A program made the position numbers and the translations under genes. Positions 1 through 55,097 of a stretch of DNA of 64,000 nucleotides are shown here, one piece after another (position 1 is the first letter of the stretch; every line of letters starts with the position of its first letter). A model generated the notes under the pieces. That model was given only the letters and a program-made list of their open reading frames with translations. It did no database searches and had not been told where the DNA came from. The stretch is from Malacoraja senta (lineage: Eukaryota), in assembly GCA_038087875.1 (NCBI GenBank), contig CM075989.1, positions 806,001 to 870,000 of the forward strand, in the 5' to 3' direction.

Positions 1-878
1 GGCCTCTACTGTCTTCTGAGGCAGAGAATTCCACAGATTCACAACTCTCTGGATGAAAAAGTTTTCCCTCATCTCTGTTCTATATGGCCTACCCCTAATC
101 TTAAACTGTGACCCCTAGTTCTGGTCTCCCCCAACATCAGGAACATGTTTCCTGCCTCTAGCGTGTCCAATCCCTTAATAATCTTACATGTTTCAATTGG
201 ATACCCTCTCATCCTTCTAAATTCCAGAGTATACAAGCCCAGTCGCTACATTCTTTCAACATATGACAGTCATAGAAACATAGAAACATAGAAAATAGGT
301 GCAGGAGGAGGCCATTTGGCCCATCGAACCAGCACCGCCATTCATTGTGATCATGGCTGATCGTCCCCAATCAATAACCCGTGCCCGCCTTCTCACGAAT
401 TAACCTTGTGAACCTACGCTGCACCCCCTCAATAGCAAGAATGTCCTCCTCAAATCTGGCGACCAAAACTGCACACAATTCTCCAGGTGTGGTCTCACTA
501 GGGCCCTGTACAACTGCAGAAGGACCTCTTTGCTCCTCCACTCAACTCCTCTTGTTATGAAGGTCAACATACCATTAGCTTTCTTCACTGCGTGCTGTAC
601 CTGCATGCTTAATTTCAGTGACTGATGAACAAGGACACCCATATCTTGTGTACTTCCCCTTTTCCTAACTTGACACCATTCAGATAATAATCTGCCTTCC
701 TGTTCTTGCCACCAAAGTGGATAACCTTACATTTTCCATATTAAACTGCATCTGCCATGCATCAGCCCACTCACCCAACCTGTCCAAGTCACCCTGCATC
801 CTCATAGCATCCTCCTCACAGTACACACTGCCACCCAGCTTTGTGTCATCTGCAAATTTGCTACTGTTACCTTTAATG
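1..878 (-). mobile_element. CR1 LINE 3' portion (RT C-terminus and 3' UTR), with a short extra CR1 3'-end copy at ~271-396
   Basis: ORF fragments [19 protein letters not shown] and LVRPHLE.CVQFWSP; (CATAGAAA)n tail sequence at ~271-295. Confidence 0.9.
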
Positions 879-1115
879 AGCCTGCAAATATTGTTATCAT
901 CGTATAGAATGGCCCACATAAGGAATCACTGGTCCCAATCAGTAGGAACAGTTCTAACATGTACATTCTGCAATAATCATACTCTAGTTCAATAATGTTG
1001 AAAATATGCCTCCTTTGGGAACAGAATCGATGTATTCAGTCATAACGTATAGAGAGAGAGCAAAGCAGCAGTTCAAATTGGTCTACACTGTTGATCATTA
1101 GTACCAGACACTTAC

Positions 1116-1185
1116 CTGGAACCCCCAAAGCTGCTAGAAGTAGATAATAAATTCCATACACTTGGCCGTTCACTTGTCTGTGCAT
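1116..1185 (-). CDS. Coding exon 1 of a paralogous GPR139/142-like GPCR (MHRQVNGQVYGIYYLLLAALGVP, phase-1 intron); exon 2 lies outside the window to the left
   Basis: 70-nt exon from ATG(1185) to CCAG|GTAAGT (donor at 1115). Same length and near-identical peptide to exon 31595-31664, with homologous flanks (~890-1420 vs ~31360-31820 plus 33670-33750). Confidence 0.85.
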
Positions 1186-1335
1186 TTTCTTTCACAATGC
1201 ATATGTGTTCTTGATCTGCAACCAACCTCCTGACAGTGCTGAATGTTCAAATATATAATTGTTCAAAGCCCCGGGAGAGACAATTAGATTACATCATCCA
1301 TGAAGCAAACTGATTGGATGACATCACCATTTGTG
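1186..1335 (-). promoter_or_regulatory. Proximal promoter/5' UTR of the paralogous GPCR (TGATGTCA, CCAAT, TGATGTAAT, TATA)
   Basis: Reverse complement closely matches 31445-31594; motif order and spacing are conserved. Confidence 0.6.
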
Positions 1336-1439
1336 TCAGTTACACTCATTAAAAGGAAGAAATTAAATCGCCTGCTGTCTGTGTGTTTATCTTTGTCTGT
1401 AGTACTACATAGAATAAAATAGAAGACTAAGGCACAAGA

Positions 1440-1700
1440 TTCCCTTGAAAAAGTAGAGATGGTCAAAAACTTCAAATTGATGGTCAAAAACAAAAACTTC
1501 AAATTCCTAAGAGTCAACATCTCCTGGACCACCCATATTGAAGCAATGAGCTAGAAGGGACACCAACGCCTCTACTTCCTCAGAAGGCGAAGGAAGTTTG
1601 GAATGTCTCCAACTCTCAACAATTTCTACAGATGCACCATAGAAAGCATCCAGGACCGCAAGAAATTGCAATGAATTCTGGACGCAGCCCAGGCCATCAC
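1440..1700 (+). mobile_element. Rex1/Babar-like LINE RT C-terminal fragment
   Basis: Degenerate 'NFKFL..NISWTTHI...HQRLYFLRR.RKFGMS' translation. Confidence 0.55.
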
Positions 1701-3465
1701 AGAGGGATCTAGGAGTGCAGGTGCATGGTTTCTTGAAGGTGGTCGCAGCTAGATAGGCTGGTCAAAAAGGCTGTTGGCACATTGGCTTTCATCAGTCAGA
1801 GTATTGAGTATAAAAGTTGAGAAATCATGTTGGTGAGGCCACATTTAGAGTATAGTGTTTAGTTCTGGGCACCATGTTATAGGAAAGATGTTATCAAGCT
1901 GGAAAGGGTGCAAAGAGAAGATTTACGAGAATGTTGCCAGGAATTGGGACTGAGTTATAGCGCCAGGTTGAATAGGTTGGGACTCTATTCCTTGGAGCGC
2001 AAGAGGATGAGCGGTGATCTTTTAGTGGTGTATAAAATCAGAGGAGGAATAGATCAGATAGATGCACAGTGACTCTTGTTCAGAATAGGGGAATTGAGGA
2101 CCAGAGGACATAGGTTTAAGGGGAAAAGATTTAATGGGAATCTGAGGGGTAACTTTTTCACACGTGGCTGGTGGAGCTGCAAGAGGAGGTAGTTAAGGCA
2201 GGGACTATCGCAATGTTTAAGAAACAGGTACATAGAAATGGACAGGTTTGAAATGATATGGGCCAAATGCAGGCAGGCGGGAATAATGTAGCTGGGACAT
2301 GTTGGCCGGTGTGGTAAAGTTGAAATGAAAGGCCTGTTTCCATGCTGTATGACTCTAAGACATGATAACTCCAGTCTCCTTGCTCCTGTCCAGAGAAGCA
2401 GGTGGCTTTCTCACTCTCACTACCATTCTTTAACACATTGTCGAACATCAGGCCACATTTTTGTTTAAATCTGGTGAAGGCATTTATTAAGGTCAAAAGG
2501 TCATAAGTAATAGGAGTAGATTTAGGCCATTCAGCCCATCAAGTATACTCTGCCATTCAATCATGGCTGATCTATCTTGCCCTCATAACCCCATTCTCAT
2601 GCCTTCCCTCCAAAACCTCTGACACCTGTACTAATCTATCTATCTCTGCCTTAAAAATATCCATTGACTTGGCTTCCACATCCTTCTGTGGCATAGAATT
2701 CCACAGATTCACTACTCTATGACTACAGAAATTTCTCCTCATCTCCTTCCTAAACAAACGTTCTTTAATCCTGAGGCTATGACCTCCAGTCCTAGACTCT
2801 CCCACTAATGGAAACATCCTCTCCACATCCACTCTATCCAAGTCTTTCAATGAGGTCCCCCCTCATTCTTCTAAACTACAGGCCCAGTGCTGACAAATGC
2901 TCATTATATTATTGTAGCTACTTCCCAGTCCATTACTGCTGCTAGAATAGGCATGTTCATTGCAGCCATATCTGTTCCGATGCATACAGAGTTGCTGTTC
3001 CAGTTGTGCATGACACATAAATAACAGAATCAATTGGCTATAAATATTGAAGTCTGCAGTGTGGCTACTCACCCATTTTAACTGGCATCTAGCAACAAAA
3101 TGAAGTAATTCTTTTTGTTGAACAGTTGAGTCCTCTGAGATGATTAAAGCATAATTAGCACTTGTGATTCCTCATGTTCATAAGTCACAGGAGCAGAATT
3201 AGGCCCATCGAATCTACCACATTCAATCATGGCTGATCTATCTTTCCAACCCCATTCTTCTTCCTCCTCTCCATAACTTTTGACATGCTTACTCACCGAG
3301 AATCTGTCAATCTCCACTTTAAAAATATCCAATGACTTGGCCCCAACAGCTGTCCGTGGCGATGAATTCCACAGATACTAATCCATGCCGATCAACATGC
3401 CCCATCTACACTCGTCCCACCTGCCGCATTTAGCCCATTTCCCTCTAAACCTTTCCTATCCATGA
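1700..3465. mobile_element. Cluster of CR1 3' fragments (+ 1700-2362; - 2495-2915; - 3175-3465)
   Basis: GHSLRIK and RVVNLWNS motifs, CR1-type 3' UTRs. Confidence 0.75.
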
Positions 3466-3614
3466 GGTTCTGCTTTATGTGTTCATTGTTGCACTCAAAT
3501 ACATTTAAAATACAAGCCTTGGATCCATTCTTCTGCTCCTCAACTAAAGATGACATTTAGTCACATTAGGGTGGGTGCTACATGAGACATCTTCATGATG
3601 AATATTGACTCATT

Positions 3615-3940
3615 GGGGCAGCCCAGTGCCGCAGCAGTAAATTGCTGCCTCACAGTGCCAGAGACCTGGGTTCGATCCTGTCTACAGGGGTTGTCTGCAC
3701 GGAGTTTGGACATTTTCCCCATGGCCACGTGGATTTTCCCCAAGTGCTCCAGTTCTTCCCACACTCCAAAGATAGACAACAGACAACAGGTGCAGGAGTA
3801 GGCCATTCGGCCCTTCGAGATGTGAGGGTTTGTTGGTTAATTGGCTTCTTAAATTGTTCGTAGTGTGTGGGATAGGGTAAAGTGATCGTTGGTTGGCACG
3901 GTCTTGGGCCTGTTTCCACACTGTATCTCTAAACTAGACT
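3615..3940 (+). mobile_element. HE1/V-SINE-like tRNA-derived SINE (chimeric)
   Basis: B-box-like GGTTCGATCC, conserved TTCTTCCCACACTCCAAAGA core and CTGTATCTCTAAACTA tail; similar copies elsewhere in the window. Confidence 0.7.
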
Positions 3941-4895
3941 CATAACCACTGCCACCATGTTATACTTTATGTTGTCTTGAGGTCTATGTTTAAAGTAAAG
4001 AACACAGACTTTGTGTCCTAGTTCTCTTTTAATAGTTCCAATGCTTTCCACAGGCTTCTCATTCTGTATCTGTTCCTGCTCACTAGATCACATGAAGTCA
4101 CTGTGTCATGCATGTCAAAGCACAGTTTCAATTGTAATAATATAACAATGTGCAATGACTGGCAGGTTTGTAGATGACACAAAAGTAGGTGGAGGATAGT
4201 GAAGAATATTATCAAAATTGTAGCTGGATCTTGATCAGTTCAACAAGGGACAGAGGAATGATTAATAAGAGTTAAATTCAGATAAGTGCAAGGTGTTGCA
4301 TTTTGGAAAGTCAAACCCTGGCAGGACCTTCACAGCGAATGGTCCTGCCAATGGGCTGTTGCAGAGCAGAGGGATCGAAGAGTGCAGGTACATAGTTCCT
4401 TGAAAGTGGCATCAGAAATATAAAGGGTGGTCAAGAAGGCTTTTGGCACATTGGCCTTCTTCAGTCAGAGTATTGAGTTTAGAAGTTGGGAGGTTATGTG
4501 ACAATTTTACAAGACATTGGTAAGACCATATAGGGACTAGTGTGTTCAGTTTTGGTCATGCTGTTGTAGGAAAGATGTTGTTAAGCTGGAAAGGGTACGG
4601 AACAGATGTATGGGGATGTTGCCAGGACTTGAGGGCCTGAGCTGTAGAGAGAGGTTGAGCAGGCTAGGACTTTCTTCTTTGGGGAACAGCAAAAGCAAAA
4701 GAGAAGGCTATAACATTGCAAAGATTAGTGGGAAGCCAGAGGTTTGGGAAGTTTTTAAAGAACAACAAAAGGTAACTAAATGGACAATACGGAGGGAAAA
4801 GATGAGGTATGTTGTCAGTAATATAAAAGAGGATAGCAAGCGTTTCTACAGATATATAAGGAGTAAAAGAGTAAAGAGTAAAAAAGAGGCAAGAG

Positions 4896-13460: not shown

Positions 13461-14425
13461 TTATAAGACAGATTTTAGAATAGAATCCGCAAACACCCAT
13501 GGCCTGGTAATCGGTTTGTCATAAAATAACTGAAAAGTTCTTTCACTAGACCATCCTGCCGCTGCAAGGATGTGGTCCATAGGAACTTCCAACCCTTTCG
13601 CTGCCGATGTCGATGCAGCCCTAGTGGAATGAGATTTAAAAACATCAGTGTTCATACCTGCCCAAGCCAACACCTGTCTTAGCCACCTTGAGATGGTTTG
13701 TACTGACACCCTTCTGTGAGGTTTCTTATGACTGATAAATAATGCCAATTCAGTGCCTCTGAGGGGTTGTGTGACCTTGATATATTGTAGCAAATGGGTG
13801 ACTACACATAAACGAAGGTCCATGAGATATGCTCCGAATTCCAATCTGAGACCTGACACCCCTGGTCTGCTCTGTTTGATTAATTCATACACATAGAAAA
13901 TTATTTTATTAGCAGATGTTATCATTGTGTCCAGTTGCAACTTTTGTAGTGACTGGACCCTTTGCGCTGAAACTAGCGCCATAAGCATAACTACTTTATA
14001 AGTTAGCTTGACCAATGACAGGGATGTTGCTGGGGCCCACCCTCGAAGCAGCGTCAGTACAATGCCTATATCCCAAATCTTGGAGTAACGAGGTCTGGGA
14101 GGTTTGGTATTAAAAATACCTTTCATGAGTTTTGCCACCAGTGGGTGAGACCCGACAGCGTGGTGTCCCAACCCTAGCCATAAATAGCACAATTAATGGC
14201 ACTGTAACCCAATCCTTCATCAAAATAAAGACTAGACAAAAACTCTAACACATCTGTCACACATGCTGTGTTATACATGACATTAGACTGTAAGCAGAAC
14301 TTCTCCCATTTCCTAATATAGGAGATATATTGTTTCTTGGTAGAATCCCTGCAAGATGCTGTGATCATGTTCAAGGTTCGATCCGTCAGTCCAAGCCCAA
14401 GATAAGGTCTCTTCAGACTCTGCAA
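13461..14425 (-). pseudogene. DIRS-A tyrosine recombinase (frameshifted: ORFs 14174-14425 and 13461-14192)
   Basis: SAQRVQSL, HSTRAASTS and AAGWSS..F..FY catalytic motifs. Confidence 0.85.
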
Positions 14426-14841
14426 ATTAATAAATGTATCCGGTCATGGCAAGGGTGACTTTCCCCTGTTACTGGATGAACCAGGAAATCAGTGCGTTTA
14501 GAAACGGTCATACAGGGTTCTGATATCGTACCATGACTGAGTAGGCCAGTCAGGTACTACCAAGATACAGTGTCCTGTTGGATCTTTTGTAAGACCCGAC
14601 TGATGAGGCAGAAGGGAGGAAATGCATAGAAAAATAACTCTCCTCAGTGGAGCGAGAACGCATCCATCGCCACTGCTCCCATGCAACATACATTGGCAAT
14701 TGGTGATTAAGCCTGGATGCGAATAGATGGATATCCGGCGTTCCATACCGAGCGATAATGTCGGCGAAAACTTTGCGGTCCAACATCCATTCGATGTTAT
14801 CTTTAGATTTTTGTGACCTGGTGTCCGCCACTATATTAAGC

Positions 14842-16089
14842 TTACCTTGGAAGGTAGGTAGCTGACATCCAAATGTTTCTTTTAATGCACCAGTGCCAAA
14901 TAAGGTTAGCCAAATAATCACAGGATACCGACTTAATTCCACACATGTGATTAATATATGCCACCGCAGTGGTGTTGTCAACATGAAGTTGAACGTGTAA
15001 ATGGTGCATTTCTGTACTGTAAGCCTTTAGCCCATAAAATGCACCCAACAACTCTAAATAATTAATACCATGTGACTTGAATAATGATGATTCATGCACA
15101 TCCCATCTGCCACCACAACTAGATATGGTATTAGTAGCACCCCAACCTTGGGTGCTAGAATCGGTTTGTAAAATAACCGAAGGACTGCTGATTATAATGG
15201 TATTGGAACCATGCCGAATGTTGAGTATCCACCATTGCAATTCAGAAATAGCATTGGCTGGTAACCGCATAGGTCGGTCAAAATGACCAGCATGATTTTT
15301 GAGTGCTTGCACCCTTGCACGTTGTAAATTTTGATAATGCAAGGGTCCAAATTGTGCGGTTGGAAATGCGGCCACTAATTTGCCAATTACCCTGGCTACT
15401 TGTCTAATAGATGGCTGATTAACAACAACAAGGTTGTAGCAGGCCTCTACTAATTCCAATCTCTTGCCCGAGGGCAGAGTCACAGACATGTGAACAGAAT
15501 TAATAGTAAACCCCAAATAATCAATCACCGTGGATGGTGTTAACTTAGGTTTATCTGGATGGTTGAGAAACCCCAATATCTCAAACAAGTGTTTAGTGGC
15601 TGAAACAGCTAATTTAGCTAATTCCAGAGATTTCCCAATGATTAAAATATCATCGAGATAAGCCATGACAATATATTTTTGAGCTCTGAGAAGCGCAACT
15701 GCCGGTTTAATAATTTTTGTAAATAATCTGGGGGCTGAAGTTAACCCATTAGGCAATTCTTTAAACTGCCACAGTTGCCCCATCCAGTTAAATTTCAAAT
15801 ACCCTCGGTGATCCCTATGAATGGGTACCGAATAGTATGCATCTTTGAGGTCGATGCATGCCATAAAGCATCCTTTGGAAATCAAATGTTTGGCAGTAAC
15901 AAAAGTTTCCATGTAAAAATGTTTATACTGCACAAAAGCATTTAGCTCAGAGAAATCAAGGATGATGCGGCATCCACCATCTTTCTTTTTCCTTGTAAAG
16001 ATATTAGAAACAAATTCGTGAGGGTAATGCCGTGACCTCTCAACTACACCTTTTGAATGTAACTTCAAAATTTCTGCATGCACAACCAA
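14842..16089 (-). CDS. DIRS-A reverse transcriptase/RNase H (415-aa open segment)
   Basis: DLKDAYY, LPNGLTSAPRLF, AYLDD, QTDSS..GWGA, INYLEL and DNTTAV motifs. Confidence 0.85.
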   Translation of the reverse strand: MVVHAEILKLHSKGVVERSRHYPHEFVSNIFTRKKKDGGCRIILDFSELNAFVQYKHFYMETFVTAKHLISKGCFMACIDLKDAYYSVPIHRDHRGYLKFNWMGQLWQFKELPNGLTSAPRLFTKIIKPAVALLRAQKYIVMAYLDDILIIGKSLELAKLAVSATKHLFEILGFLNHPDKPKLTPSTVIDYLGFTINSVHMSVTLPSGKRLELVEACYNLVVVNQPSIRQVARVIGKLVAAFPTAQFGPLHYQNLQRARVQALKNHAGHFDRPMRLPANAISELQWWILNIRHGSNTIIISSPSVILQTDSSTQGWGATNTISSCGGRWDVHESSLFKSHGINYLELLGAFYGLKAYSTEMHHLHVQLHVDNTTAVAYINHMCGIKSVSCDYLANLIWHWCIKRNIWMSATYLPR

Positions 16090-16289
16090 ACGTTCCTACT
16101 GAGAAAGCACAAACATCCGGTTAGGCGCATGCTGCGTGGATGGTAACGAATTATCAAGGAACTCAATTTTATACCCTTGTATACTGTGCAGTATAAATGA
16201 GTCAGAGGTTATAGAACTTTCACCAACTTGGAAATAATCTACACACCCCATGCTCCGAAAGGAACCAGACCCACCTAGTGGGTTAGTGA

Positions 16290-17534
16290 TTACTTCTTCC
16301 GCCCCCGAGTCCTGGGGGGTAGAGGTGCTGGAATGTGACAATGGCACATCTTCCAAGAAGGTCGCTCTGGGCCTTGGCCTAAAAAAGACCTATGTCCAGG
16401 ATATGCGGCCTTCGAGCTTTCACCAGCCTCAGGATATTGTTTTCTGCTGGTGGATGTATAGGGATGCGGCAGCCGAAATTGATAGGTCTTGCTGGTTGAC
16501 GGCAGCTTCATCAGGCCGACCGCCTTTGCCTCTTCATCCAGGTCTTTGACCTGCTTCGGTAGATTATCCCTGAACAACAAATTTGGCGGATGTATATTGC
16601 TTGCTTTACATTCTGTAACCCTGCAAACTTAGGGTTTAGAGCTGGTCGGATGACACTTTTCCTAAAACAGTTTATCTCAAAATGAGCATTGCACATAAGT
16701 GCTAGCGCATCTTGCTGCTCATCCAACAAAGGTCCTCCATCGACAGACCTGGCAAATGCCGTTATGCCCGAAGCCACTAATCTGAGGATTCTTTGGATTT
16801 TGATTTCTTGGGCCCTGATGCCCCCCCCCCCCCCCAATGTATCCCCAGATAGAATTATTTACTGCTGGGACATTTAGCGATGCACAATTTGCAGGTGCCA
16901 TGTATTTGGGGGCTGTTTCGGTCATCGCCTGCTCCTGCAGCTGGTGAGATGTAAGGTTATTAATACTCTCAGCCAGTTGTTCCTGCAACGGTTCCCCGGT
17001 TTGTGAGGGGACTGCGAATTTGGCAACCATGACAGGTACAGTTCGAGCTTTATGCACCCCAAACATACTTGCAGTGTCTTCAGCCATTCCCCCGAATTCG
17101 GAGTCAGCCCAGTCCTGGCTCCGTATACTCCCCTCCGAGGAGAGAGAGACATTGTGCAGCCATGTACGAGGCGCTGCCGTGGGCTTAGGGGACCCACGCA
17201 GACTTTGCTCCGACTGCTGGAGCATGTTATGTTGGAGCATTTTCTCCACTACACGCTCCATTCGAGCTAAACGCCCCAGGGCACTTTCTGTCGAAGGAGG
17301 TGAATCTTCCCAGCCTGACTCATCCGAGTCCACAGGCCGGTCCGTTTTTCGATTGGCTTTACCCTCTTTTCAGGGAACCACTGCCAAAATTGTAGGTCCC
17401 AAGTCGGAGGTCTCTGACGGCATTGTCAGAGCCTCAGGTGGAGAATTCGACCGCCTCAGACTGCCCGCATTTTCGCGGTCCTACGCAGCCTGTTTTGCCG
17501 CGGTCCGTTTTGACTTAGACCTTAATTTTTCCAT
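16290..17534 (-). pseudogene. DIRS-A gag-like ORF (frameshifted)
   Basis: ATG at 17534; segments 16719-17333, 16511-16837 and 16290-16580 contain P.NC..L.VP.VN and IRPALNPKF, shared with the other two DIRS copies. Confidence 0.7.
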
Positions 17535-18150: not shown

Positions 18151-19289
18151 TCTGTCCTTATTGTTTTCTCCTGAAGTTACTCCAAGAAATCACCTGCTAC
18201 AAGAGAAAAAAACCACTCCTTGGACAATCGTCAGCTGACCAACGGCCTGAACGAGTTCTACTGCAGGTTCAATAGACAGAAACATAACCCTGGTATCCCC
18301 TCTCTCCCTCCCTCCCCCACCCACTCCTCCCCAATTACCACTTCACACCTACTTACAGCCTGACTCCAGTCTGTAAACACTGGACCCATCACAACCCACT
18401 ACTAGCCTCACATCAGTGATGGGGAGGTATCTGGAGTCAATTATAAAAGATAAAATAGCAGCACATTTGGATAGCATTAAGATGGTCGGTCTGAGTCAGC
18501 ATGGAATTACAAATGGGAAATCATTCTTGACTCATCTTCTGGAAATTTTTGAGGAACTTAAGCCCCTGTCTCACGGTCCGAGTCCACTCACGAGTGATCC
18601 CAAGTGAAAGAAAAAATCAAACTCGTGGTTGTCTACGAGATTCCAAGTTTATGTTCACGAGTTTAAACGAGTTCCCACGTGTATGTCTAAGTTTTCCGTT
18701 TACTTCTCATATCTGCGATGTGCCAAGTTCCTCTCCCGAGTTACTCTTGAGCCAACAACGACTACCGACATGTGGAAAAATCATCACATGGATAAAAATG
18801 TCATGCAGTTTTTTTTACTATAAAAAGCCTCCCATGACCATGACAGAACTTCCTCGACGATCAGCTTCTCCATGTCTCTTATGCTTCTCATGCATGCTTC
18901 TCTTGTCATGTAATTAACCACTTTTATCAAATCGTTGCCTATCATTGCTACAATTCAAAAAATGGCATTTAAGTACTTGGCTGTCAAAAAAAGCGCAAAA
19001 CGTAAAGGTGTTTAAGAAACGGACTCCAGGGAGAACTTCAAAGCTTTTGTAAATCGATTAAATTCAGGTAGAAGTTGAACTCAAGATATAAATCCCCTGA
19101 AAGTTAGGTTTCTTAACACAGGATAGATGTTCTGCCAGAACGGAGTTGCTGAATAAAATCATCTCCCATTTTCCTCCATTTCTTGCATGACCTCGGCTTG
19201 CCAGCTTTATTTCACACTCCGTGATCTGCGTAATGTATATAAGTGTAAAATAATAAACTGACCAAGAATGTCCCGTGTTCACCCTTGTT

Positions 19290-19525
19290 AGTTTAGTTTA
19301 GTTTAGAGATACAGAGAGGAAACAGGCCCTTCGGACCACTGGTTCCGCGCCGACCAGCGATCCCCGCACACTAACACCATCCTACACCCACTATGGACAT
19401 TTTTACATCTTTGGAGTGTGGGGGGATGGGGAGAACTTACAAACTCAGTACAGACAGCACCCATAGTCGGGATCGAACCCGGGTCTCCGACGCTGCATTC
19501 GCTGTCAGGCAGCTGCACCACCGTG
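19290..19525 (-). mobile_element. HE1/V-SINE-like SINE
   Basis: GGTGGTGCAG head, GGGTTCGATCCCG B-box and (CTAAA)n tail. Confidence 0.8.
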
Positions 19526-19552
19526 AATGAAGGCCTGTTTTAAGTATTAAAT

Positions 19553-20141
19553 AGAGGAGCAAGAGGGTGATCAAGGCGGAGAAAGTGTAGAGGCCAATGC
19601 CCAGGTAGTCCAACTCGCAGGAGTGCAGGTCCACCATGACGACGCTGTGGCCGCGGTGGGCTTTGAGGGAGGCGCAGGTGACATCGGTGACCAGGCGAGG
19701 GATGTAGACCGTGGTCTGATTGATCCACCACACGAACCACCTGGCATCGCAGGTGCAGAGAAAGTGGTTGCCGCTTAGCCGCAGCTCCCGAAGGTGTTTG
19801 ATGGTGCTGTCCGGGAAACTGGAGACCTGGATGGTCTTCAGGTTGTTGTAGCTGAGATCCAGGTACTGCAGGGAGGTGCCGTCCCGCAGGAAGTCCTTGG
19901 TCAGCTTGGAGATCTGGTTGCGGGTGAGGTTGAAGACGCGCAGGGTCTGGGTGCAGTTGGACAGCATGCGAGGCACCGTGGTCAACAGGTTGCTACCGAG
20001 GTCCAGCAGCTCCAACCAGCCTAGCAGGTAAAGCCTGCCCCAGTTGAAGCTCCACAGCTGGTTACCGCTCAGCACAAGCTCCTTGAGTAGCGGGGGCAGG
20101 TGGTCAAACACGTCGTGCGGCATGAGAGCGAGTCTCTTCCC
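19553..20141 (-). pseudogene. TLR7: Toll-like receptor 7-family gene fragment: last LRRs, LRRCT and start of TM; no N-terminus, no TIR domain
   Basis: Uninterrupted frame with LTTVPRMLSNC, LQYLDLSYN, NHFLCTCDARWFVWWINQT and DVTCAS..AHRG.SV..DLHSCELD, colinear with the vertebrate TLR7 ectodomain C-terminus as I recall it; visibly GC-rich against the flanks. Confidence 0.85.
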
Positions 20142-20210
20142 CTAATAATCCGCTGCTATCTGTGTTCGAGAGCGAAAACTTGCAAAGGGCATGCATGGTT
20201 CCTCACCAGC

Positions 20211-20437
20211 GAAGATGGACACAGAATGCTGGAGTAACTCAGCGGGACAGGCAACATCTCTGGAGAGAAGGAATGTGTGACGTTTCGGGTCGAGACGCGT
20301 TACTTCTCTCCAGAGATACAGCAACAGCACAGCACAAAACCAGTCTGAAGAAGGGTCTCGACCCAAAATGTCACCAATTTCTTTTCTCCAGAGATGCTGT
20401 CTGCCCCGCTGAGTTACTCCAGCATTTTGTGTCTATA
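20211..20437. repeat. Penelope-derived palindromic element with degenerate hammerhead motifs
   Basis: Inverted arms GACACAGAATGCTGGAGTAACTCAGCGGG / CCCGCTGAGTTACTCCAGCATTTTGTGTC. Confidence 0.75.
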
Positions 20438-23400
20438 TCCCATGGCTTGTTATGTCACCTCACATTGTAAAATCATTATCTGAAGAAATGTCTCCTCGCT
20501 GGCTCAAACATAATCTATGTAGAACTCACATTTGTCTCTGCTTCATATACGTGGGAATTCCCTCAGTATGGTCACTTTTGACCCGTCCCGTCCGGTGTTA
20601 ACCCTTCCCATCAATGCTTGAGCCCCCATCTTCGCTCTGTACCTTCAGCTTCATCGGCGGCTCTCTCCCTTCGAAAGTATCCAAGTTAATTTCAGACCCC
20701 TATCCATCCATCCATTCATTCATTTTCCATTAAGATCTGACTAATCTTCAACATTTCACTTCTGGCACTCAGGCCTAACCCACGGTGGACTCAAGAGTCA
20801 CTACGGTAAACTCACGGGCCACTACGTTCTTACAACGAGTTTAAATGTTTTAAATTTTAACTTCAAGAGTAAATTTGACACGTGGAAATCTTTAAACATG
20901 TTTAAAATTTTTCAAGAGTTAACAACTTTCCCGGGTACCTGCCGTTAGCGCCACGAGTCGCTAAGTTGCGTCCACGAGGTTCCGAGGTTCCCGCCACGTT
21001 AATTGTACGTGATTACCACGAGTTTCATTTGTTTTAAACTCGGGGTCACTCGTGGGTCGACTAGCACCGTGAGACAGGGGTTTAACTAGGAAAATGGACA
21101 AGGGAGAGCCAGTGTATGTAGTGTACCTGGACTTTCAGAAAGCCTTTGATAAGGTCCCACATAGGAGATTAGTGGGCAAAATTAGAACACATGTTATTCG
21201 TGGTAAGATACTGACATGGATGGGAAATTGGTTGGCAGACAGGAAACAAAGAGTAGGGATTAACGGATCCCTTTCAGAATGGTAGGCAGTGACTAGTGGG
21301 GTACTGCAAGGCTCGATACTGGGACCGCAGCTATTTACAATATACATTAATGATTTAGATGAAAGGATTAAGAGTAACATTAGCAAATTTGCAGATGACA
21401 CAAAGCTGGGTGGCAGTATGAACTGTGAGGAGGATGCTATGAGGCTGCAGGGTGACTTGGACAGGTTGGGTGAGTGGGCAGATGCATGGTAGGTGCAGTT
21501 TAATGAAACTAAATGTGAGGTTATCCACTTTGGGGGCAAGAACAGGAAGGCAGATTATTATCTGAATGGTGTCATGTTGGGAAAAGGGAAGTACAACATG
21601 ATCTGGGTGTCCTTCTTCATCAGTCACTGAAAGAAAGCATGCAGGTACAGCAGGCAATGAAGAAAGCTAATGGCATGTTGGCCTTCATAACAAGAGGAGT
21701 TGAGTTTAGGAGTAAAGGGGTCCTTCTACTGTTGTACAGGGCCCTAGTGAGACCACACCTGGAGTATTGTGTGCAGTTTTGATCTCCAAATTTGAGGAAG
21801 GACAGTCTTGCTATTGAGGGAGTGCAGCGTAGGTTCACGAGGTTAATACCTGGGATGGCGGGACTGTCATGTGTTGAAAGAATAGAGCGACAGGGCTTGT
21901 ACACTCTGGAGTTTAGAAGGATGAGAGGAGATCTTATTGAAACATGGAAGATTATTAAGGGATTGGACATGCTGGAGGCAGTAAACATGTTCCCGATGCT
22001 GAGGGTGTCCAGAATCAGGGGCCACAGTTTAAGAATAAGGGGTAGGCCATTTAGAACTGCGATGAAGATTTTTTTTTTACCCAGATAGTTTCTCTGGATG
22101 TTTTCAAGAGAGAGTTAGATAGAGCTCTTAAAGTTAGCGTAGTCAAGGGATATGGGAAGAGGGCAGGAACTGATTGTGGATGATCAGCCATGATCACAGT
22201 GCTGGCTCGAAGGGCCGAATGGCCTACTCCTGCACCTATAGTCTATTGTCCCCAATTACCACATCACATCCACTTACAGCCTGACTCCAGTCTGCAAAGA
22301 CTGGGCTCTCGTCCACTACCCACCCCCTCCTTGCTGCCCAACATCAATCAGTCTGGCCACTTTTCCATCGCTAACCATAGCAATTGAGGAAGTGGAAAAG
22401 CAATTCAGGAGACAGAAAAGCCATAAATCTCCAGGATCGGACAATGTTTCCCCCTCTACCCTCAAGTTCTGTGCCAAACAACTAAGGATTACTGGTCTTA
22501 ATGACTACACGCCTGTCGCACTGACCTCTGTAATCATGAAGACCCTTGAAAGACTTGTGCTGGTCCACCTTAAAAATATCACAAACCCCATGCTGGACCC
22601 TCTGCAGTTTGCATACCGGGCAAATAGATCAGTGGATGACACAGTCAACCTAGGCCTGCATTCCATCCTCCAGCACCTAGACGGCTAAGGGACCTATGCA
22701 AAGATTTTGTTTGTGGATTTTAGCTCTGCATTGTGCCAGAGCTACTACACTCCAAACTCTCCAAGTTGACTGTGCCTGAACCCCTCTGTCAGTGGATCAC
22801 CAACTTCCTGACAGACTGGAAGCAGCATGTGAGGCTGGGAAAGCACATCTCAGACCCGCTGACTCTCAGCATAGGAGCACCGCAAGGCTGCGTATTCTCC
22901 CCGCTCCTTTACTCTCCCTACACAAACGATTGCACCTCTGTCAAGCTTCTCAAGTTTGCGGACGACATAACCCTGATTGGACTGATCCAGGATGGGGAGG
23001 AATCTGCCTACAGACATGAAGTGACAAAGCTGGTATCCTGGTGCCATCGCAACAACCTGCTGCTCAATGCTCTTAAGACAGTGGAATTGATTATAGACTT
23101 TTGCAGAGCTCCCCCTTCCCTCCCCCCACTCATCATCAATAACACCACAGTCACATCTGTAGAGTCATTTAATTTCCTTGGAACCATCATCTGCAGGGAC
23201 CTTTTATTGGGAGGCCCCAATCGACTCAGTCAAAACGACCCAACAGAGGATGTACTTCCTGCAGCAGCTGAGGAAACACAATCTGCCACTAGCAATGATG
23301 GTTCAGTTTTATACTGCCATCATAGAGTCTGTCCTCACTTTCTCCATCATGGTCTGGTTTGGCTCAGCCACCAAGCATGACATCCGGAGGCTGCAGGGCA

Positions 23401-39965: not shown

Positions 39966-40056
39966 AATTATTCATCCTGTCAATTATTTGTACAATTTAC
40001 CGCCATCTGGTAATGATTGGTCCAATTAATTGTTTGTTTGTTTCTTTTTAAATGAG

Positions 40057-40970
40057 GTAACTTGGTGACAATGGTGATCCTGGCTCGGGGAAGATGCGGA
40101 CTGTCCAGATGTATCACTTGGTACCTGATGAGCATGGCGATGGCAGATACACTTGTCCTTCTCACAGCAGTGATACTAAACAGGATTAGTATCATTTATT
40201 TCCCTGTCTTCTTCCTCTACACCACTCCATCCTGTAGCTTCAGAATAACTCTTATCTTTGCTGTCAGAGACAGCTCAGTCTGGCTGACAGTTGCATTCAC
40301 CTTCAATCGGTTTGTAGCCATCTGCTGCCAGAGGCTGAAAACAAGCTACTGCACTGAGAAAATGGGGGCGATTGTTATCTTCACAGTTTGTATTGTGAGT
40401 TCTGTGAGAAACATTCCCTGGTACTTTGTACAGGAGCCTTTATATATTGTTAATGATGTCCAATGGTTCTGTAATATTAAGTTAAGCTTTTATTCCAATT
40501 CTTCATGGATAGCATTTGCTTGGATGGGCCTTATGTTAAACCCATGTGTCCCCTTCCTTCTGATGTTGTTGCTAAACGTTCTGACTGTTCGACACATTCT
40601 GGCTTCAAACAGAGTCCGCGAGAGATTGCAGGTCTGGGGCAAAGGAGAGAATCAGAAAGACCCAGAAATGGAGAGTCGGAAGATGTCCATCATTTTACTA
40701 TTTGCTATCTCAGGAAGTTCTATCCTGTTGTGGGCAACCTATGTTGTAAATATCTTCTATGTCCAATTTACAAACGGTAAATTTGTATCCACCGCTATTC
40801 TCCAGGAAAGTGGCAACATGTTGCTACTGCTGAGTTGCTGCATCAACACGTGTATCTATGGAGTGACCCAGAGGAGGTTCAGACAGGAGTTCAAGAGTGG
40901 GTTGCAATACCCACTAAATATGATCATTAAAATCGTAAAGTCGTGTAAAAGATTCAATACTTTCTACTGA
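40057..40970 (+). CDS. GPR139/142-like class-A GPCR, exon 2 (TM1 end to TM7); full protein 327 aa
   Basis: Open frame with ILARGRCGLS, MAMADTLVL, SVWLTVAFTFNRFVAICC, PCVPF..LLLNVLTVRHIL and NTCIY..TQRRFR; acceptor AG at 40055-40056. Confidence 0.9.
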
Positions 40971-50762: not shown

Positions 50763-53700
50763 CTAAGCGAGCTCCCCGCAACGGACAGGCGGCTTGACCA
50801 ACCGGCCATAGCGGGTGCGCAACCCGCATTCCCCCTCAACCGCAGGAGCAGAAGGGACAGAGTCAGGGAAAGCGGTGGGAGAGCCGGGCGGGGAACGAAC
50901 CGGAGACGGAAGAGAACAGCGAGGCGAAACGGGCACGCTGGCAGGCAAGGCAGGGGAAAGAGGCTTGTGAGCGCGGGGCATAGAGAGCTGGGAGGGCAGT
51001 TTCCGCGACATGCGAGGAGTGACAGGGGCTGGCGGAGCCTCGGGCAGAATGGAAGGGATAGGTGGCTGAAACGGGTCCGCGGGAGGCGGAGGAGGCTCGT
51101 TGACGAGCAGGAGGTGCTGGCGTGACCGACGGTAGATAGCGCCCTCATAGTCGACGAGGTATGACCGAGGAGAGCCAGCATTACCAACCACTACGGCCAG
51201 CCTGTAGTGCCCGGAGGGGGACTGCATCCGAACCACCTGGCCCGGGAACAGGCAAGGAAGCGGCCGGGCCGACTTGTCAAAGGAGCGCTTCTGGATGGCT
51301 TTCTTCTCGATGATGCGCTCTGTGACAGCAGCAGAGTTCTGGACTGAGGGTTTGAGGGACTGTTGCGAGACAGGGAGAGGTGGTCTAGTGGTGCGGGACA
51401 TGAGGCGTTGGGCAGGTGAACCGAGCACGGGGTCGCGGGAAATGTTGCGGAGGTTGAGGAGGGCAAGGTAGAAGTCGGAATGTGAAAGGCGGCAGTGTTC
51501 CAGCAGCTCCTTGGCACTGCGGACGGCGCGTTCCGCAAGGCCGTTGCTCTGCGGATACTCAGGGCTGCTGGTTATGTGACGAAAGTTCCAACGGGCAGCG
51601 AAGGCACGGAACTCGGCGCTGGAGAACTGGCTGCCGTTGTCCGATTGGAGGGTCACCGGGGGTCCATGGGTGCAAAAGTGTTGGCGAAGCTTCCCGATGA
51701 CGGCGGCAGAGGTGATGGAAGGCAGCTGATCCACCTCAAACCAACTGGAGTATGAGTCCACCAGGACCAGGAAATGCTTGCCACGCCATTCGAAAAGGTC
51801 CGTGGCAATATACATCCACGGTAGCTCGGGGGCCGGCTGCTGCAGGAGGGGCTGGCGCTGCTGATGAGGCAGGAGACTGTTACAGGCAGCGCAAACGGAG
51901 ACCCTGTCACGGATGTCCTGAGCCATACCTGGCCAGTAGAATTGGCTCTGGGCCTGGGACAAAGTGGCCTCCACCCCGGGTGGCCATCGTGTGCAGTTTG
52001 AAAATAGTGATCCCGCAGAGCGGCCGGCACCACGACCTTGTGACCCTTCACCACCACGCCGTAATGTAGCACTAGTTCATCACGAACCAGGAAGTAGGGC
52101 ACGGCACCAGCCGGCAGGGAAGAGCGTCGGTCAGGCCAACCATGGCGGATAACGTCCGCAAGTTCTTGCAGGGCAGGATCATCAGCAGTGTGTTTGACCA
52201 GGGACTGCATCTGCTGGGATGGAACAATGTTAACATCAGTACCATCAGGTCAGAGGATTCGTACGGGTGGCGGGCAACTGAAGGGAGCGGCGCATGGGAC
52301 AATGTGTCGGCCACAAACATATCTTTGCCCTTGCGGTAGCACAATCCGGAACGTGAAACGCTGGAGCTGCAGCATCATCCGCTGCAACCGGGAAGAGGCG
52401 ACATGGATAGGCTTGTTCAGAATAGTGACCAGTGGCTGGGTGGTCAGTCTCAATGGTGAAGGTGTTGCCCAGAATGTAATCCCTAAACTTGGAGCAGGCG
52501 AACACCACGGCAAGTAGCTCCTTCTCGATCTGTCATAACGTTGCTCGGCAGGGGTCATGGTGCGAGAAGCGTAGGAGACAGTAGCTGCAGGCCGTCATAA
52601 AGCTGCAGACATGCGGCACGAGACCGAACTTAGAGGCATCACAAGTGAGGACAATTGGTCTGTGCAGATCGAAGAACTTGAGAGTCCGGTGTGTGTGTGA
52701 GCCTGGACTTCAGAGCCACGAACGCCGACTGGTGATGCGGGAGCCAGACCCATGCGGAGTCTTCTTGATCAGCTCCCTCAGGGGAGCACTCAGTTCGCTG
52801 AGGTCAGGTACGAACTTCCCCAGGTAATTGACCAGGCCCAGGAAGCGCTGCAGGCCGGGAACGTCAGTAGGAGCGGGCATCTCGGTGACTGCTGATGTTT
52901 TCTGGGGGTCAGGCTTTAAACCCCCTGCCGTGAAAACGTGACCAACGTAAGTGACTTCCGGGACCCGGAACCGACACTTCTTGGGGTTGAGCTTGAGATT
53001 GATTTTACGAGCCCTGTCCAGGACTTTGCGGAGGTGCAGGTCGTGCTCAGCGACGTCCCTCCCGTACACCAGGATGTCATCCACGATGATAGCGCACGGC
53101 AACCCAGCGAACAGCTGTTCCATGGTGCGCTGGAAAACCTCACTAGCCGAGTTGATCCCAAACGGCATACGGAGGAAACGGAACCTGCCGAAAGGTGTGA
53201 TGAAGGTGGTCAGGAATGAGGAACGTTCATCTAAAGGGATCTGCCAGAATGAGCTTTTGGCGTCTAAGACAGAGAAGACAGTGGCAGGACCGACCTGTGC
53301 AGCGACGTCCTCCACCGTCCGCATGGGGTAGTGCGGGCGCTTGATGGCCAGGTTCAGGTCCTTTGGATTAATGCAGATCCGGATCTCGCTCTTATCCTTC
53401 TTGGCAGCGACAACCATGTTTGAGACCCACCTGGTGGCAGCGCTCACCTCCTTGAGGATGCCCATGGTCACCATATCACGCAGAGTAGATTCCACGCGGC
53501 CCTTCATAGCGAAGGAGACGCGGTGGGCCGGTCGAACCACCGGGTCGACACTCGGGTCGACAACGATTTTATAGTCACAGGGCAATTTGCTCAAAATGTC
53601 ATCAAAACGGTCGGGGTATTCGCCCAGGGGGTCCATGGGGGCCTGCACCAGGTCAATTCCGCGGTGGAAAGAAACCAAACCAAGGTCCTGGCACGCACAG

Positions 53701-54869
53701 GCGCCCAGCAGGGTGACGTTGTCAGAATCCAGGAGGTGGAAGGTGAGGGGCCGAGAGGTCTCAAGGACTGTGCAGATAAGCGTGGCCTTCCCCACTGGAA
53801 CTAGAACTCCTCCCCCATAGACATGAAGGCGGGTGTCATCGGGAGTAACTATCTCCCCAGATCTTATCCGCTTGAAAAGGCTGATAGACATAACATTTGA
53901 AAAGGCACCAGTATCGACCTTGGCAGAGAATGAATGACCATTAACAGTAACATGCACAGAGGGATCTGTTATCGTAGCAGGTGCACCCAAAAGCAAAAAC
54001 ACCGTTGAATCACCATGGGAGGAGCTCCTATCAAAGTCCGACTGGTACTGATAACCAAGCGCGCTATCAGGGTCTGCAAGGTTGTTTAAATTCCTCCTTG
54101 GAGCAGGGAGCGGCTTATCACGGGACCGACAAGCCGCCGAAAAGTGGTTCAGTTTGCCACAGGAATTACAAGTCTTACCCTGCGCGGGGCAAACGTTGAA
54201 TTGGTGGAAAGAAAAATTACAATTGGGGCAACGGCGTGGGGTGACCTTAGCGGGCGTTGCGGCGGGGTTTCGTCGTGGCGGACCAGCGTTCCACCGGCGG
54301 CCAGCTGCACCGGTAAAGTTAATGTCCTGGGACACCGGTTAAGACACGGAGCTAACAGCAGAGGCCATACGAGCGGAATACATAGCCTCCCTTAGTGTCA
54401 AATCAGGTTTCATAAGGAGCTCGTCACGCAGCTTAGCGTTCAGGAGACCATTGACGAGGACATCCCTGATCAATTGGTCCGTGGAGATTGTTTCAAGGCG
54501 ACAGCGCCGAGCCATATGACGCAAAGAGGCAATAAAAGCGTCAATATGCTCGCCGGGATTCTGCCGCCTCTGGAAGAATTTAAAGCGTTCAATAATGTTA
54601 TTGGTAGGGATATCACAGAGGGCAGTGAATTTATCAATGAGACATACCGGGTCCCGACGGTCTTCTCCGGGGGCGAAGTCGAATGAAGCATAGTGATCCA
54701 TGGCCTCCGGGCCAGCGAGGTTGAGCAGCAGGTGAGCCTGCACAGCAGGGGTGGCATTAGGATGAGCGATGGCTGTGTAATGTTCAAAGTCGCGCTGGAA
54801 CACAGTCCAGCGGTGGACAATGTCCGTGTCAAAGACCAATATGTCGGGTCGACGACAGGAATTGGACAT
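50763..54869 (-). pseudogene. Gypsy gag-pol (in-frame TAA at 54339-54341; frameshifts in RNase H and integrase N-terminus)
   Basis: ORFs 54339-54869 and 52710-54335 share a frame; further ORFs 52250-52558, 51653-52210 and 50763-51974 (SDNGSQF, SNGLAERAV). Confidence 0.88.
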
Positions 54870-55097
54870 AATGAAAACGGGGGGGGAGACGTGAACAACT
54901 GGGAGAAAGCAAAGAATAAAAAGAAAAAACGATAAACAGGAGACGCGGGTCTACCACTTCGACACCATGTAAAATGACTTGGTTCCTACACAGAGTCTTT
55001 TACTGATGGTTTATTAAATCACTAACACACACCATGCAATAGCTGTCCGTGGTCATCACTGGAGCTAGAGAGAGGGCTGGAGGTGGGAACCTTACAA

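What the first reader, a model, noticed from the sequence alone, without database searches (positions are those of the whole stretch)
18561..21082. Intact TLR7 gene fragment carried inside a TIR DNA transposon (Pack-type capture?)
Seen: ~590 bp (19553-20141) of stop-free, GC-rich TLR7-like sequence (LRRs, LRRCT, partial TM) sits between the TIRs of a 2.5-kb element that cleanly interrupts a CR1. There are no other TLR parts nearby, and no poly(A) or TSD at the fragment. It has an in-frame ATG (20123), and the frame runs on into a SINE. Established: Pack-MULE/Pack-TIR elements capture host gene pieces. Inference: either an innate-immune receptor fragment being spread by a vertebrate DNA transposon (a possible decoy or antisense source), or a one-off DNA-repair insertion into this copy.
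Basis: partly seen in the sequence, partly recalled or inferred. Interest (0 to 1): 0.85.

Follow-up and report, generated by a model that had tools for sequence, protein, structure and literature searches.

The report
Skate transposon family carrying TLR7 fragment
A cut-and-paste transposon in skates picked up a piece of the antiviral receptor gene TLR7 and then copied it to about a hundred places in the genome, where the pieces are decaying as passengers and are being mistaken for the real gene.

Summary
Real and mobilised, but apparently not functional. The 2,522-bp element (18561-21082) is a non-autonomous PIF/Harbinger with a 3-bp TWA duplication. It carries TLR7 residues ~660-851; the family consensus is 180/192 identical to Amblyraja TLR7. 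The cargo occurs at 99 places on 36 contigs, and contigs from three coded organisms bridge the junction. Relatives give a series: cargo-free elements, rare long-cargo forms (one includes the TIR domain), and the window's form, a microhomology deletion derivative that amplified. 'Intact' is luck of youth. Across 51 copies the synonymous share is 0.319 against 0.32 expected, 13 of 51 keep the frame, and a frameshifted master spread. Full-length TLR7 was not found in this assembly; reads suggest a gap, not loss. RefSeq's 249-aa little-skate 'TLR7' is a copy of this element. A 2026 preprint saw extra TLR7 pseudogenes in skates without naming a mechanism. The kind is known (multicopy Pack-TIR); the scale and the cargo are unusual for vertebrates. 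The scan earlier noted a diatom Pack-Harbinger, not this family.

The parts
18561..21082 (+). Non-autonomous PIF/Harbinger-type element, short (~2.5 kb) form of the TLR7-carrying family
   Evidence: family of 99 places
18558..18560 (+). Left target-site triplet TTA
21083..21085 (+). Right target-site triplet TAA (CR1 relatives mostly read TAA at the empty site)
18561..18615 (+). Left terminal inverted repeat
   Evidence: I2; 13 of 16 terminal bases equal those of an autonomous Harbinger in this genome
21028..21082 (-). Right terminal inverted repeat
   Evidence: 12 of 16
19291..19525 (-). tRNA-type SINE-like repeat inside the element, already present in the cargo-free relatives
   Evidence: B-box-like motif and short-repeat tail read (SINE label from recalled knowledge; no Rfam match); shared with cargo-free copies
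19555..19560 (+). 6-bp microhomology AGGAGC at which ~1.13 kb (element DNA plus the TLR7 juxtamembrane/TIR part) was deleted from the long form
   Evidence: junction 20-mer at 88 places against 1 for the reversed control
19555..20133 (-). Captured TLR7 coding fragment: last LRRs, LRR-CT and first part of the TM helix (Amblyraja numbering ~660-851)
19437..20123 (-). 228-codon ATG-to-stop frame: TLR7 part plus an element- and SINE-derived tail; no hydrophobic N-terminus; one chimeric hydrophobic helix at 176-194
20134..20516 (+). Non-TLR7 filler that is absent from the cargo-free elements; includes a very abundant ~240-bp hairpin repeat (20206-20445)
   Evidence: hairpin hits 28 places in an unrelated 160 kb
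20517..21082 (+). Right arm of the element, shared with cargo-free relatives
18400..18560 (+). CR1 reverse-transcriptase remnant, upstream half of the insertion site (start approximate)
21083..22245 (+). CR1 remnant, downstream half (end approximate)

Best explanation
A multicopy Pack-TIR of the PIF/Harbinger superfamily in rajid skates. Step 1 (inferred): a ~2.5-kb non-coding Harbinger element acquired, at one internal site, a block of TLR7's large coding exon plus filler DNA, by template switching during repair or replication; a 3-bp TTA overlap marks the TLR7-side breakpoint. Step 2 (junctions shown, order inferred): microhomology deletions trimmed the long element into sub-forms. One keeps aa ~660-1000 with the TIR domain (2 copies). 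One keeps aa 481-~854 (3 copies). The window's form keeps aa ~660-851. Step 3 (shown): the window's form was cut and pasted to about 95 sites with TWA duplications in one star-like burst, the copies now being ~2% from consensus; the transposase is inferred to come in trans from an autonomous Harbinger. Step 4 (shown): the cargo decays neutrally, so it is a passenger and not a selected protein.
For: Spread: at least 40 full-length matches at 96-97% besides the self hit (40 of 104 candidates scored). The junction 20-mer occurs at 88 places against 1 control. The union of four searches is 99 places on 36 contigs, and 66 of 77 previously known places were re-found. 17 of 18 loci picked by a non-TLR segment carry the cargo. 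Ends: of 53 loci with both ends, 26 have a perfect 3-bp duplication and 11 a TAA/TTA pair; about 39 of the 46 cargo-bearing ones have distinct flanks, judged by eye from 5 bases each side. Superfamily: an autonomous element in the same genome (L165) has TAA duplications, similar termini, a DDE_Tnp_4 ORF (E 7.8e-35) and a MADF ORF (E 2e-4, at the cut-off). Series: 5 of 5 fetched loci sharing the inner segment are cargo-free, and their join falls at the TLR7 boundary. The TIR part has 2 matches and the 481-653 part 3 matches in the assembly, all inside elements. Neutrality: 51 copies give 173 synonymous, 353 nonsynonymous and 16 nonsense changes; synonymous share 0.319 against 0.32 from the element's own non-cargo spectrum; 13 of 51 are frame-intact, and 0 of 17 in the set chosen without regard to cargo; one 2-bp frameshift is shared by 8 of 39 and 11 of 17 copies. 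Reads: contigs from three coded organisms bridge the element/TLR7 junction.
Against: No autonomous partner with shared subterminal sequence was found among 30 of 150 scored transposase loci (only 1.5 kb flanks were held for most). The tree does not order cargo-free, long and short forms; all are about equally old. The parental TLR7 DNA was not recovered from this assembly, so breakpoints are read against sister copies and an Amblyraja protein. The two long forms have different fillers on the right, so two captures or a further rearrangement cannot be excluded. The neutrality test pools copies and would miss selection on one or a few; L063 keeps a 436-codon frame.
Confidence: 0.88

Rival explanations
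1. The copies regulate the parental TLR7 in trans through RNA: piRNA, siRNA or antisense transcripts made against the transposon also match TLR7 mRNA. This can hold together with the best explanation.
For: About 100 near-identical templates. Coding neutrality does not bear on an RNA role. Tan et al. cite small-RNA production by Pack-MULEs (PMC8277862, introduction).
Against: No promoter or transcript was identified. The internal SINE points away from the cargo. Transposon silencing is mainly germline while TLR7 acts in immune cells (established knowledge, not tested here).
Confidence: 0.1
2. The fragment encodes a selected decoy protein, for example one that titrates the chaperone UNC93B1.
For: The cargo keeps LRR-CT, the juxtamembrane region and the start of the TM, which are the parts that contact UNC93B1 (PMC12931374, figure legend). 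The element tail completes a hydrophobic helix. RefSeq models one little-skate copy as a 249-aa protein.
Against: Neutral spectrum, 38 of 51 copies broken, and a frameshifted master amplified. The window copy itself has 8 nonsynonymous and 3 synonymous changes. There is no signal-peptide-like N-terminus, so the ectodomain part would not reach the ER lumen (inference).
Confidence: 0.03
3. The parental TLR7 has been lost in this skate lineage and only transposon-borne pieces remain.
For: No full-length TLR7 match (stricter first look), none for the N-terminal part (best 35%), and none among 12 TIR-domain matches. No full-length Leucoraja erinacea TLR7 appears among the best 120 of 170 hits, and the Amblyraja cluster has one member.
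Against: In runs X3 and X4, single-depth contigs follow the TIR part and run on 684 and 567 letters unlike the element from the capture point. In X1 a second contig of depth 37.7 ends at the same place by depth arithmetic. Only one PRPS locus was found, with PRPS1-type neighbours, and no TLR8-level match, which suggests the whole block is missing from the assembly (neighbour identities from recalled synteny). A preprint reports TLR7 in all elasmobranchs it studied.
Confidence: 0.1
4. The cargo-free elements are deletion products of a cargo-bearing ancestor and not the pre-capture state (this alters step 1 only).
For: The tree is unresolved and the ages are equal. The cargo-free join differs from a clean deletion by only one base.
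Against: The cargo-free join coincides with the end of TLR7 homology to within about 3 bases, which a random deletion would rarely hit (inference).
Confidence: 0.15
5. A one-off repair insertion into this copy, or a misassembly.
For: None remaining.
Against: 99 places; the junction is bridged by contigs of three organisms; the same junctions are present in a RefSeq protein of little skate.
Confidence: 0.01

Closest known systems
Multicopy Pack-TIRs of animals (Tan et al. 2021, PMC8277862; read parts 1-3 of 10 of the text and supplement passages)
   Same: Host sequence inside a TIR element, re-transposed with distinct duplications, short microhomology at a breakpoint.
   Different: That survey found four multicopy families among 370 Pack-TIRs in 100 genomes: three hAT and one Kolobok, the illustrated one with three copies. 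'Harbinger' occurs 37 times in the table, but in none of the four multicopy families. Elephant shark had 0, and 'TLR' does not occur in the 12 supplements searched. Here there are about 100 copies, 0.58-1.1 kb of coding cargo (median there 224 bp) and surviving intermediates.
Pack-PIF elements of maize and rice (PMC8903248, passages)
   Same: Same superfamily, TTA/TAA duplications, and clusters with cargo-free and cargo-bearing members (52 and 72 in Zm-Pack-PIF cluster 18).
   Different: Plant. The proposed capture there is by fusion of neighbouring insertions; here the insert sits at one internal site with no leftover internal TIRs seen.
Gene-carrying Helitrons of vespertilionid bats (PMC4224331, abstract and section 13)
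   Same: Vertebrate DNA transposons amplifying host gene pieces to high copy (12,382 copies from 54 genes).
   Different: Rolling-circle elements without TIRs or duplications; the cargo is enriched for 5' regulatory parts.
'Additional pseudogenized copies' of TLR7 in Rajiformes (bioRxiv 10.64898/2026.03.23.713620, passages and section 14; supplements not seen)
   Same: Very probably the same sequences (inference).
   Different: 'transpos' occurs 0 times in its main text; the passages read give no mechanism, copy number or structure.
Ssk-FB4 of Drosophila (PMC8277862)
   Same: Multicopy Pack-TIR with protein-coding cargo.
   Different: A nearly whole gene with proteomic and positive-selection support; here an internal fragment evolving neutrally.

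Membership tests
PIF/Harbinger (non-autonomous) | 3-bp TTA/TAA target-site duplication | tested here: met
   36 of 53 loci have TWA on both sides (25 identical, 11 swapped); the CR1 empty site restores with 3 bp; feature as described in PMC4561436 and PMC8903248
PIF/Harbinger (non-autonomous) | Short TIRs resembling those of autonomous Harbingers | tested here: met
   12-13 of 16 terminal bases equal to L165, which encodes DDE_Tnp_4 and MADF proteins
PIF/Harbinger (non-autonomous) | An identifiable autonomous partner sharing subterminal sequence | tested here: inconclusive
   none among 30 of 150 scored transposase loci (534 candidates)
PIF/Harbinger (autonomous) | Encodes transposase and Myb/SANT protein | tested here: not met
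   no tblastx similarity to transposase loci other than the hairpin repeat; the element is non-autonomous
Multicopy Pack-TIR | Non-TE host sequence enclosed by one TIR element | tested here: met
Multicopy Pack-TIR | Several copies with distinct duplications and flanks | tested here: met
Multicopy Pack-TIR | Cargo-free version of the element exists | tested here: met
   L167-L171 (5 of 5 fetched from a group of about 10) and two other derivatives
Multicopy Pack-TIR | Parental copy identified in the same genome | tested here: inconclusive
   not found in the assembly; ortholog in Amblyraja; parent-like contigs in runs
Multicopy Pack-TIR | Microhomology at a capture breakpoint | tested here: inconclusive
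   3-bp TTA overlap at the TLR7 end, read from sister copies without parental DNA; none at the filler end
Multicopy Pack-TIR | Transcription or chimeric RNA (seen in a proportion) | not testable with these tools
   no RNA holder listed
piggyBac / Kolobok | TTAA 4-bp duplication | tested here: not met
   the TTAA look in the window is TTA plus the element's first A on the left and its last T plus TAA on the right; across copies the duplication is 3 bp
Retrocopy or LINE 3' transduction | poly(A) tail and own duplication around the fragment | tested here: not met
Functional TLR7 receptor | Signal peptide, full ectodomain, TM and TIR under purifying selection | tested here: not met
   192 of 1047 residues, no hydrophobic N-terminus, no TIR, neutral spectrum; elasmobranch TLR7 omega 0.16 in the preprint

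The most novel reading that the evidence does not exclude
By carrying TLR7 sequence into about a hundred transposon copies, the element has put the skate's antiviral receptor gene under transposon-silencing control: small RNAs or heterochromatin aimed at the family also hit the parental TLR7, dampening it. In some skates, possibly this one and little skate, where no full-length TLR7 was retrieved, the parent may have been lost. That would be a DNA transposon reshaping a vertebrate innate-immune repertoire through its cargo.
Probability: 0.1. Interest if true: 0.85.

Novelty: new member of a known kind. Interest (0 to 1): 0.55.

Why it matters
Gene capture followed by repeated transposition is common in plants but was found only four times for TIR elements in a survey of 100 animal genomes (PMC8277862). 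This is a roughly 100-copy case in a vertebrate, in a superfamily and clade where that survey listed no multicopy family, and with protein-coding immune cargo. Cargo-free, long-cargo and trimmed forms all survive, so the capture-then-trim-then-amplify route can be reconstructed base by base and dated by comparing skates. It gives a mechanism for the unexplained extra TLR7 pseudogenes of Rajiformes. It also shows a practical hazard: the RefSeq protein named TLR7 in little skate (XP_055503482.1) is a transposon copy, which affects TLR repertoire and selection studies.

Tried and rejected
TTAA-type superfamilies: rejected. Synteny search for the parent: the only PRPS locus found has mitochondrial-carrier-like and XK-like ORFs beside it and no TLR7 match in 160 kb, so it is probably PRPS1 (recalled synteny); three thymosin loci were not followed. 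Residues ~300-480 of TLR7 were not searched on their own in the assembly; they are covered only by the whole-protein search with its stricter first look, so absence there is weaker evidence. Expression: no RNA holder listed; run X19 is marked 'probably DNA' and gave one cargo contig; neither is evidence either way. The run laying was swamped by the hairpin repeat, so loose-end letters at the capture point were not displayed, and the parent-like reading rests on piece coordinates and depths. Tree of 1,260 shared columns: star-like, no order of events (copies with under 500 aligned columns, L046 and L155 were left out). A first reading that the capture replaced 5 bp was corrected to 1 bp. Raw pN/pS by simple site counting was 0.86 and was replaced by the spectrum-based test; six same-flank duplicates and columns with over 25% minor allele were dropped before counting. 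Rfam: no match in 18500-21150. Literature searches that did not show this element: (open-access library only; the preprint's supplements, which may show the copies' context, were not seen). No structure or complex prediction was run.
Full report
Observation. An element with 58-nt inverted arms spans 18561-21082. Taking it out together with three bases restores a colinear match to CR1 relatives in all 11 alignments printed. Inside it, a stop-free minus-strand frame (19437-20141) carries LRRs and matches human TLR7 662-861 far better than TLR8 (E 7.8e-66 against 1e-32). The nearest database protein is Amblyraja radiata TLR7 (92%), so the host is a rajid skate; I did not identify it further. The cargo proper runs from 19555 to about 20133, which is residues ~660-851. 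The ATG at 20123 is TLR7's own internal methionine. No other TLR7 match lies in the window.

It is a family, not an accident. The cargo search scored 40 of 104 candidates, all near full length at 96-97% apart from the self hit. A 20-base pattern across the element/TLR7 junction matches 88 places against 1 for the reversed control. The union is 99 places on 36 contigs; the pattern re-found 66 of the 77 places already known, so the assembly holds about a hundred. Of 18 loci picked through a non-TLR internal segment, 17 carry the cargo. Of 46 cargo-bearing loci with both ends, about 39 have distinct flanks by eye; six share one flank pair and two further pairs are duplicates. Contigs from three coded organisms bridge the junction. 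Summed depth over the common cargo is 3,686-25,996, 760-2,876 and 728-4,187, against 58-69, 67-118 and 34-46 over the TIR-coding part. The tool warns that these depths are not copy numbers, but the contrast is large.

Superfamily. Among 53 loci with both ends, 26 have a perfect 3-bp duplication (18 TAA, 7 TTA, 1 TCA), 11 have a TAA/TTA pair (the window among them) and 16 have a damaged or changed flank. TTA/TAA triplets define PIF/Harbinger (PMC4561436, PMC8903248, passages). An autonomous Harbinger in this genome (L165) has TAA duplications, DDE_Tnp_4 and MADF ORFs, and termini equal to ours at 12-13 of 16 bases. It shares no subterminal sequence, and no partner turned up among 30 of 150 scored transposase loci. 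The mobiliser is therefore inferred.

History. Three cargo lengths exist between the same ends: aa ~660-1000 including the TIR domain (2 copies), aa 481-~854 (3 copies), and the window's form. The window's form joins two distant points of the TIR-bearing form at a shared AGGAGC; the 481 form joins two others at a 2-3 base overlap. Both read as deletion derivatives. Searching with the segment that the window's form lost found about ten further near-complete matches. All five fetched are 2.3-2.5-kb elements with no TLR7 (the left end of one was not seen), and they join directly across the 1.4-kb block of TLR7 plus filler. Their join falls at the end of TLR7 homology, on a TTA shared by element and cargo, which favours them as the pre-capture state. 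The tree cannot confirm this: it is star-like, and all groups lie 1.4-2.8% from their consensus. The two long forms have different fillers, so a second template switch is possible.

Function. With a mutation spectrum taken from the element's non-cargo columns, a neutral cargo should show a synonymous share of 0.32. Fifty-one copies give 173 synonymous, 353 nonsynonymous and 16 nonsense changes, a share of 0.319. Thirteen of 51 keep the frame: 13 of 34 among top cargo hits and 0 of 17 among loci chosen without regard to cargo. One 2-bp frameshift is shared by 8 of 39 and 11 of 17 copies, so a broken master spread well. The window copy has 8 nonsynonymous and 3 synonymous changes. A product from the ATG would have no hydrophobic N-terminus and one chimeric helix. 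The fragment does retain the LRR-CT and TM start that contact UNC93B1 (PMC12931374), which is the only hook for a decoy, but nothing here shows selection or expression. A pooled test would miss one domesticated copy; L063 keeps a 436-codon frame. An RNA-level effect is untested.

The parent. Full-length TLR7 was not found in this assembly. The database holds no full-length little-skate TLR7 among the best 120 of 170 hits. Its RefSeq 'toll-like receptor 7' (XP_055503482.1, 249 aa) starts in the hairpin repeat and ends in the element tail, so it is a copy of this element. Loss is nevertheless unlikely. In two runs, single-depth contigs follow the TIR part and continue 684 and 567 letters unlike the element from the capture point. 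In the best-matching run, a second contig ending at the same place reproduces three depth bins (174.0, 253.5, 104.8 against 174.1, 253.5, 104.9). Their letters were not displayed, so 'parent' is an inference. A second PRPS locus and a TLR8-level match were also not found, which fits a missing block.

Comparison. It works like, and meets the main tests of, a multicopy Pack-TIR. Tan et al. (PMC8277862; parts 1-3 of 10 and supplement passages) found four multicopy families among 370, three hAT and one Kolobok, and no Pack-TIR in elephant shark. Multicopy Pack-PIFs are known in maize, and bat Helitrons amplify gene pieces far more. A 2026 preprint notes extra pseudogenised TLR7 copies in Rajiformes, with no word on transposons in its main text (supplements not seen). 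Six searches of the open-access library did not show this element. The scan's own index had no look-alike and no note on this genome, and one diatom Pack-Harbinger.

Verdict. A new member of a known kind, unusual for a vertebrate TIR element in copy number, cargo and completeness of its history, with a practical annotation consequence. There is no sign of function. Interest 0.55.

Noticed in passing
family-wide; window 18558-18560 and 21083-21085: 11 of 36 copies with TWA on both sides have non-matching triplets (9 TAA/TTA, 2 TTA/TAA), far above point mutation (P about 5e-16). This fits an element that carries its donor triplet as an overhang into the new site, leaving a mismatch repaired either way (inference). 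The passages of PMC4561436 that I read propose staggered cleavage in the triplets but deal with excision sites.
   Followed up: partly
P0121 (XP_055503482.1): The RefSeq protein named TLR7 in Leucoraja erinacea is a copy of this element; in that copy the upstream stop is read as Trp and the model starts in the hairpin repeat.
   Followed up: partly
L117-L146, L165, L166; one match at G000:C13:872361, 2.4 kb beyond the window: Abundant Harbinger transposase matches (150 scored of 534 candidates), many at 96-99% identity with open frames of 440-480 codons: a recently active autonomous family.
   Followed up: partly
L022, L027-L030 and other ~3.5-kb copies: A longer sub-form has ~900 bp of simple-repeat-rich DNA and a right end only ~83% like the short form's, suggesting end exchange with a sibling family.
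   Followed up: no
L031, L040, L048, L049, L058, L067: One copy with a damaged left end was multiplied at least six times with its flanks (inside a CR1), that is by segmental duplication or redundant assembly.
   Followed up: no
L063:4345-5650: A 481-type copy keeps a 436-codon open frame over TLR7 481-~854; its two sisters are broken.
   Followed up: partly
window 40056-40967 (+): Single-exon rhodopsin-family 7TM frame of 304 codons (7tm_1, E 8e-16).
   Followed up: no
G000:C7:18,932,000-18,942,000 (L105, L106): Endogenous retrovirus-like gag, pol and env frames, in pieces (labels from recalled motifs).
   Followed up: no
window 13464-17369, 50766-54950, 55776-58958: DIRS-like and Gypsy-like remnants among CR1/L2 pieces: the element sits in a repeat-dense region (labels from recalled motifs).
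   Followed up: no
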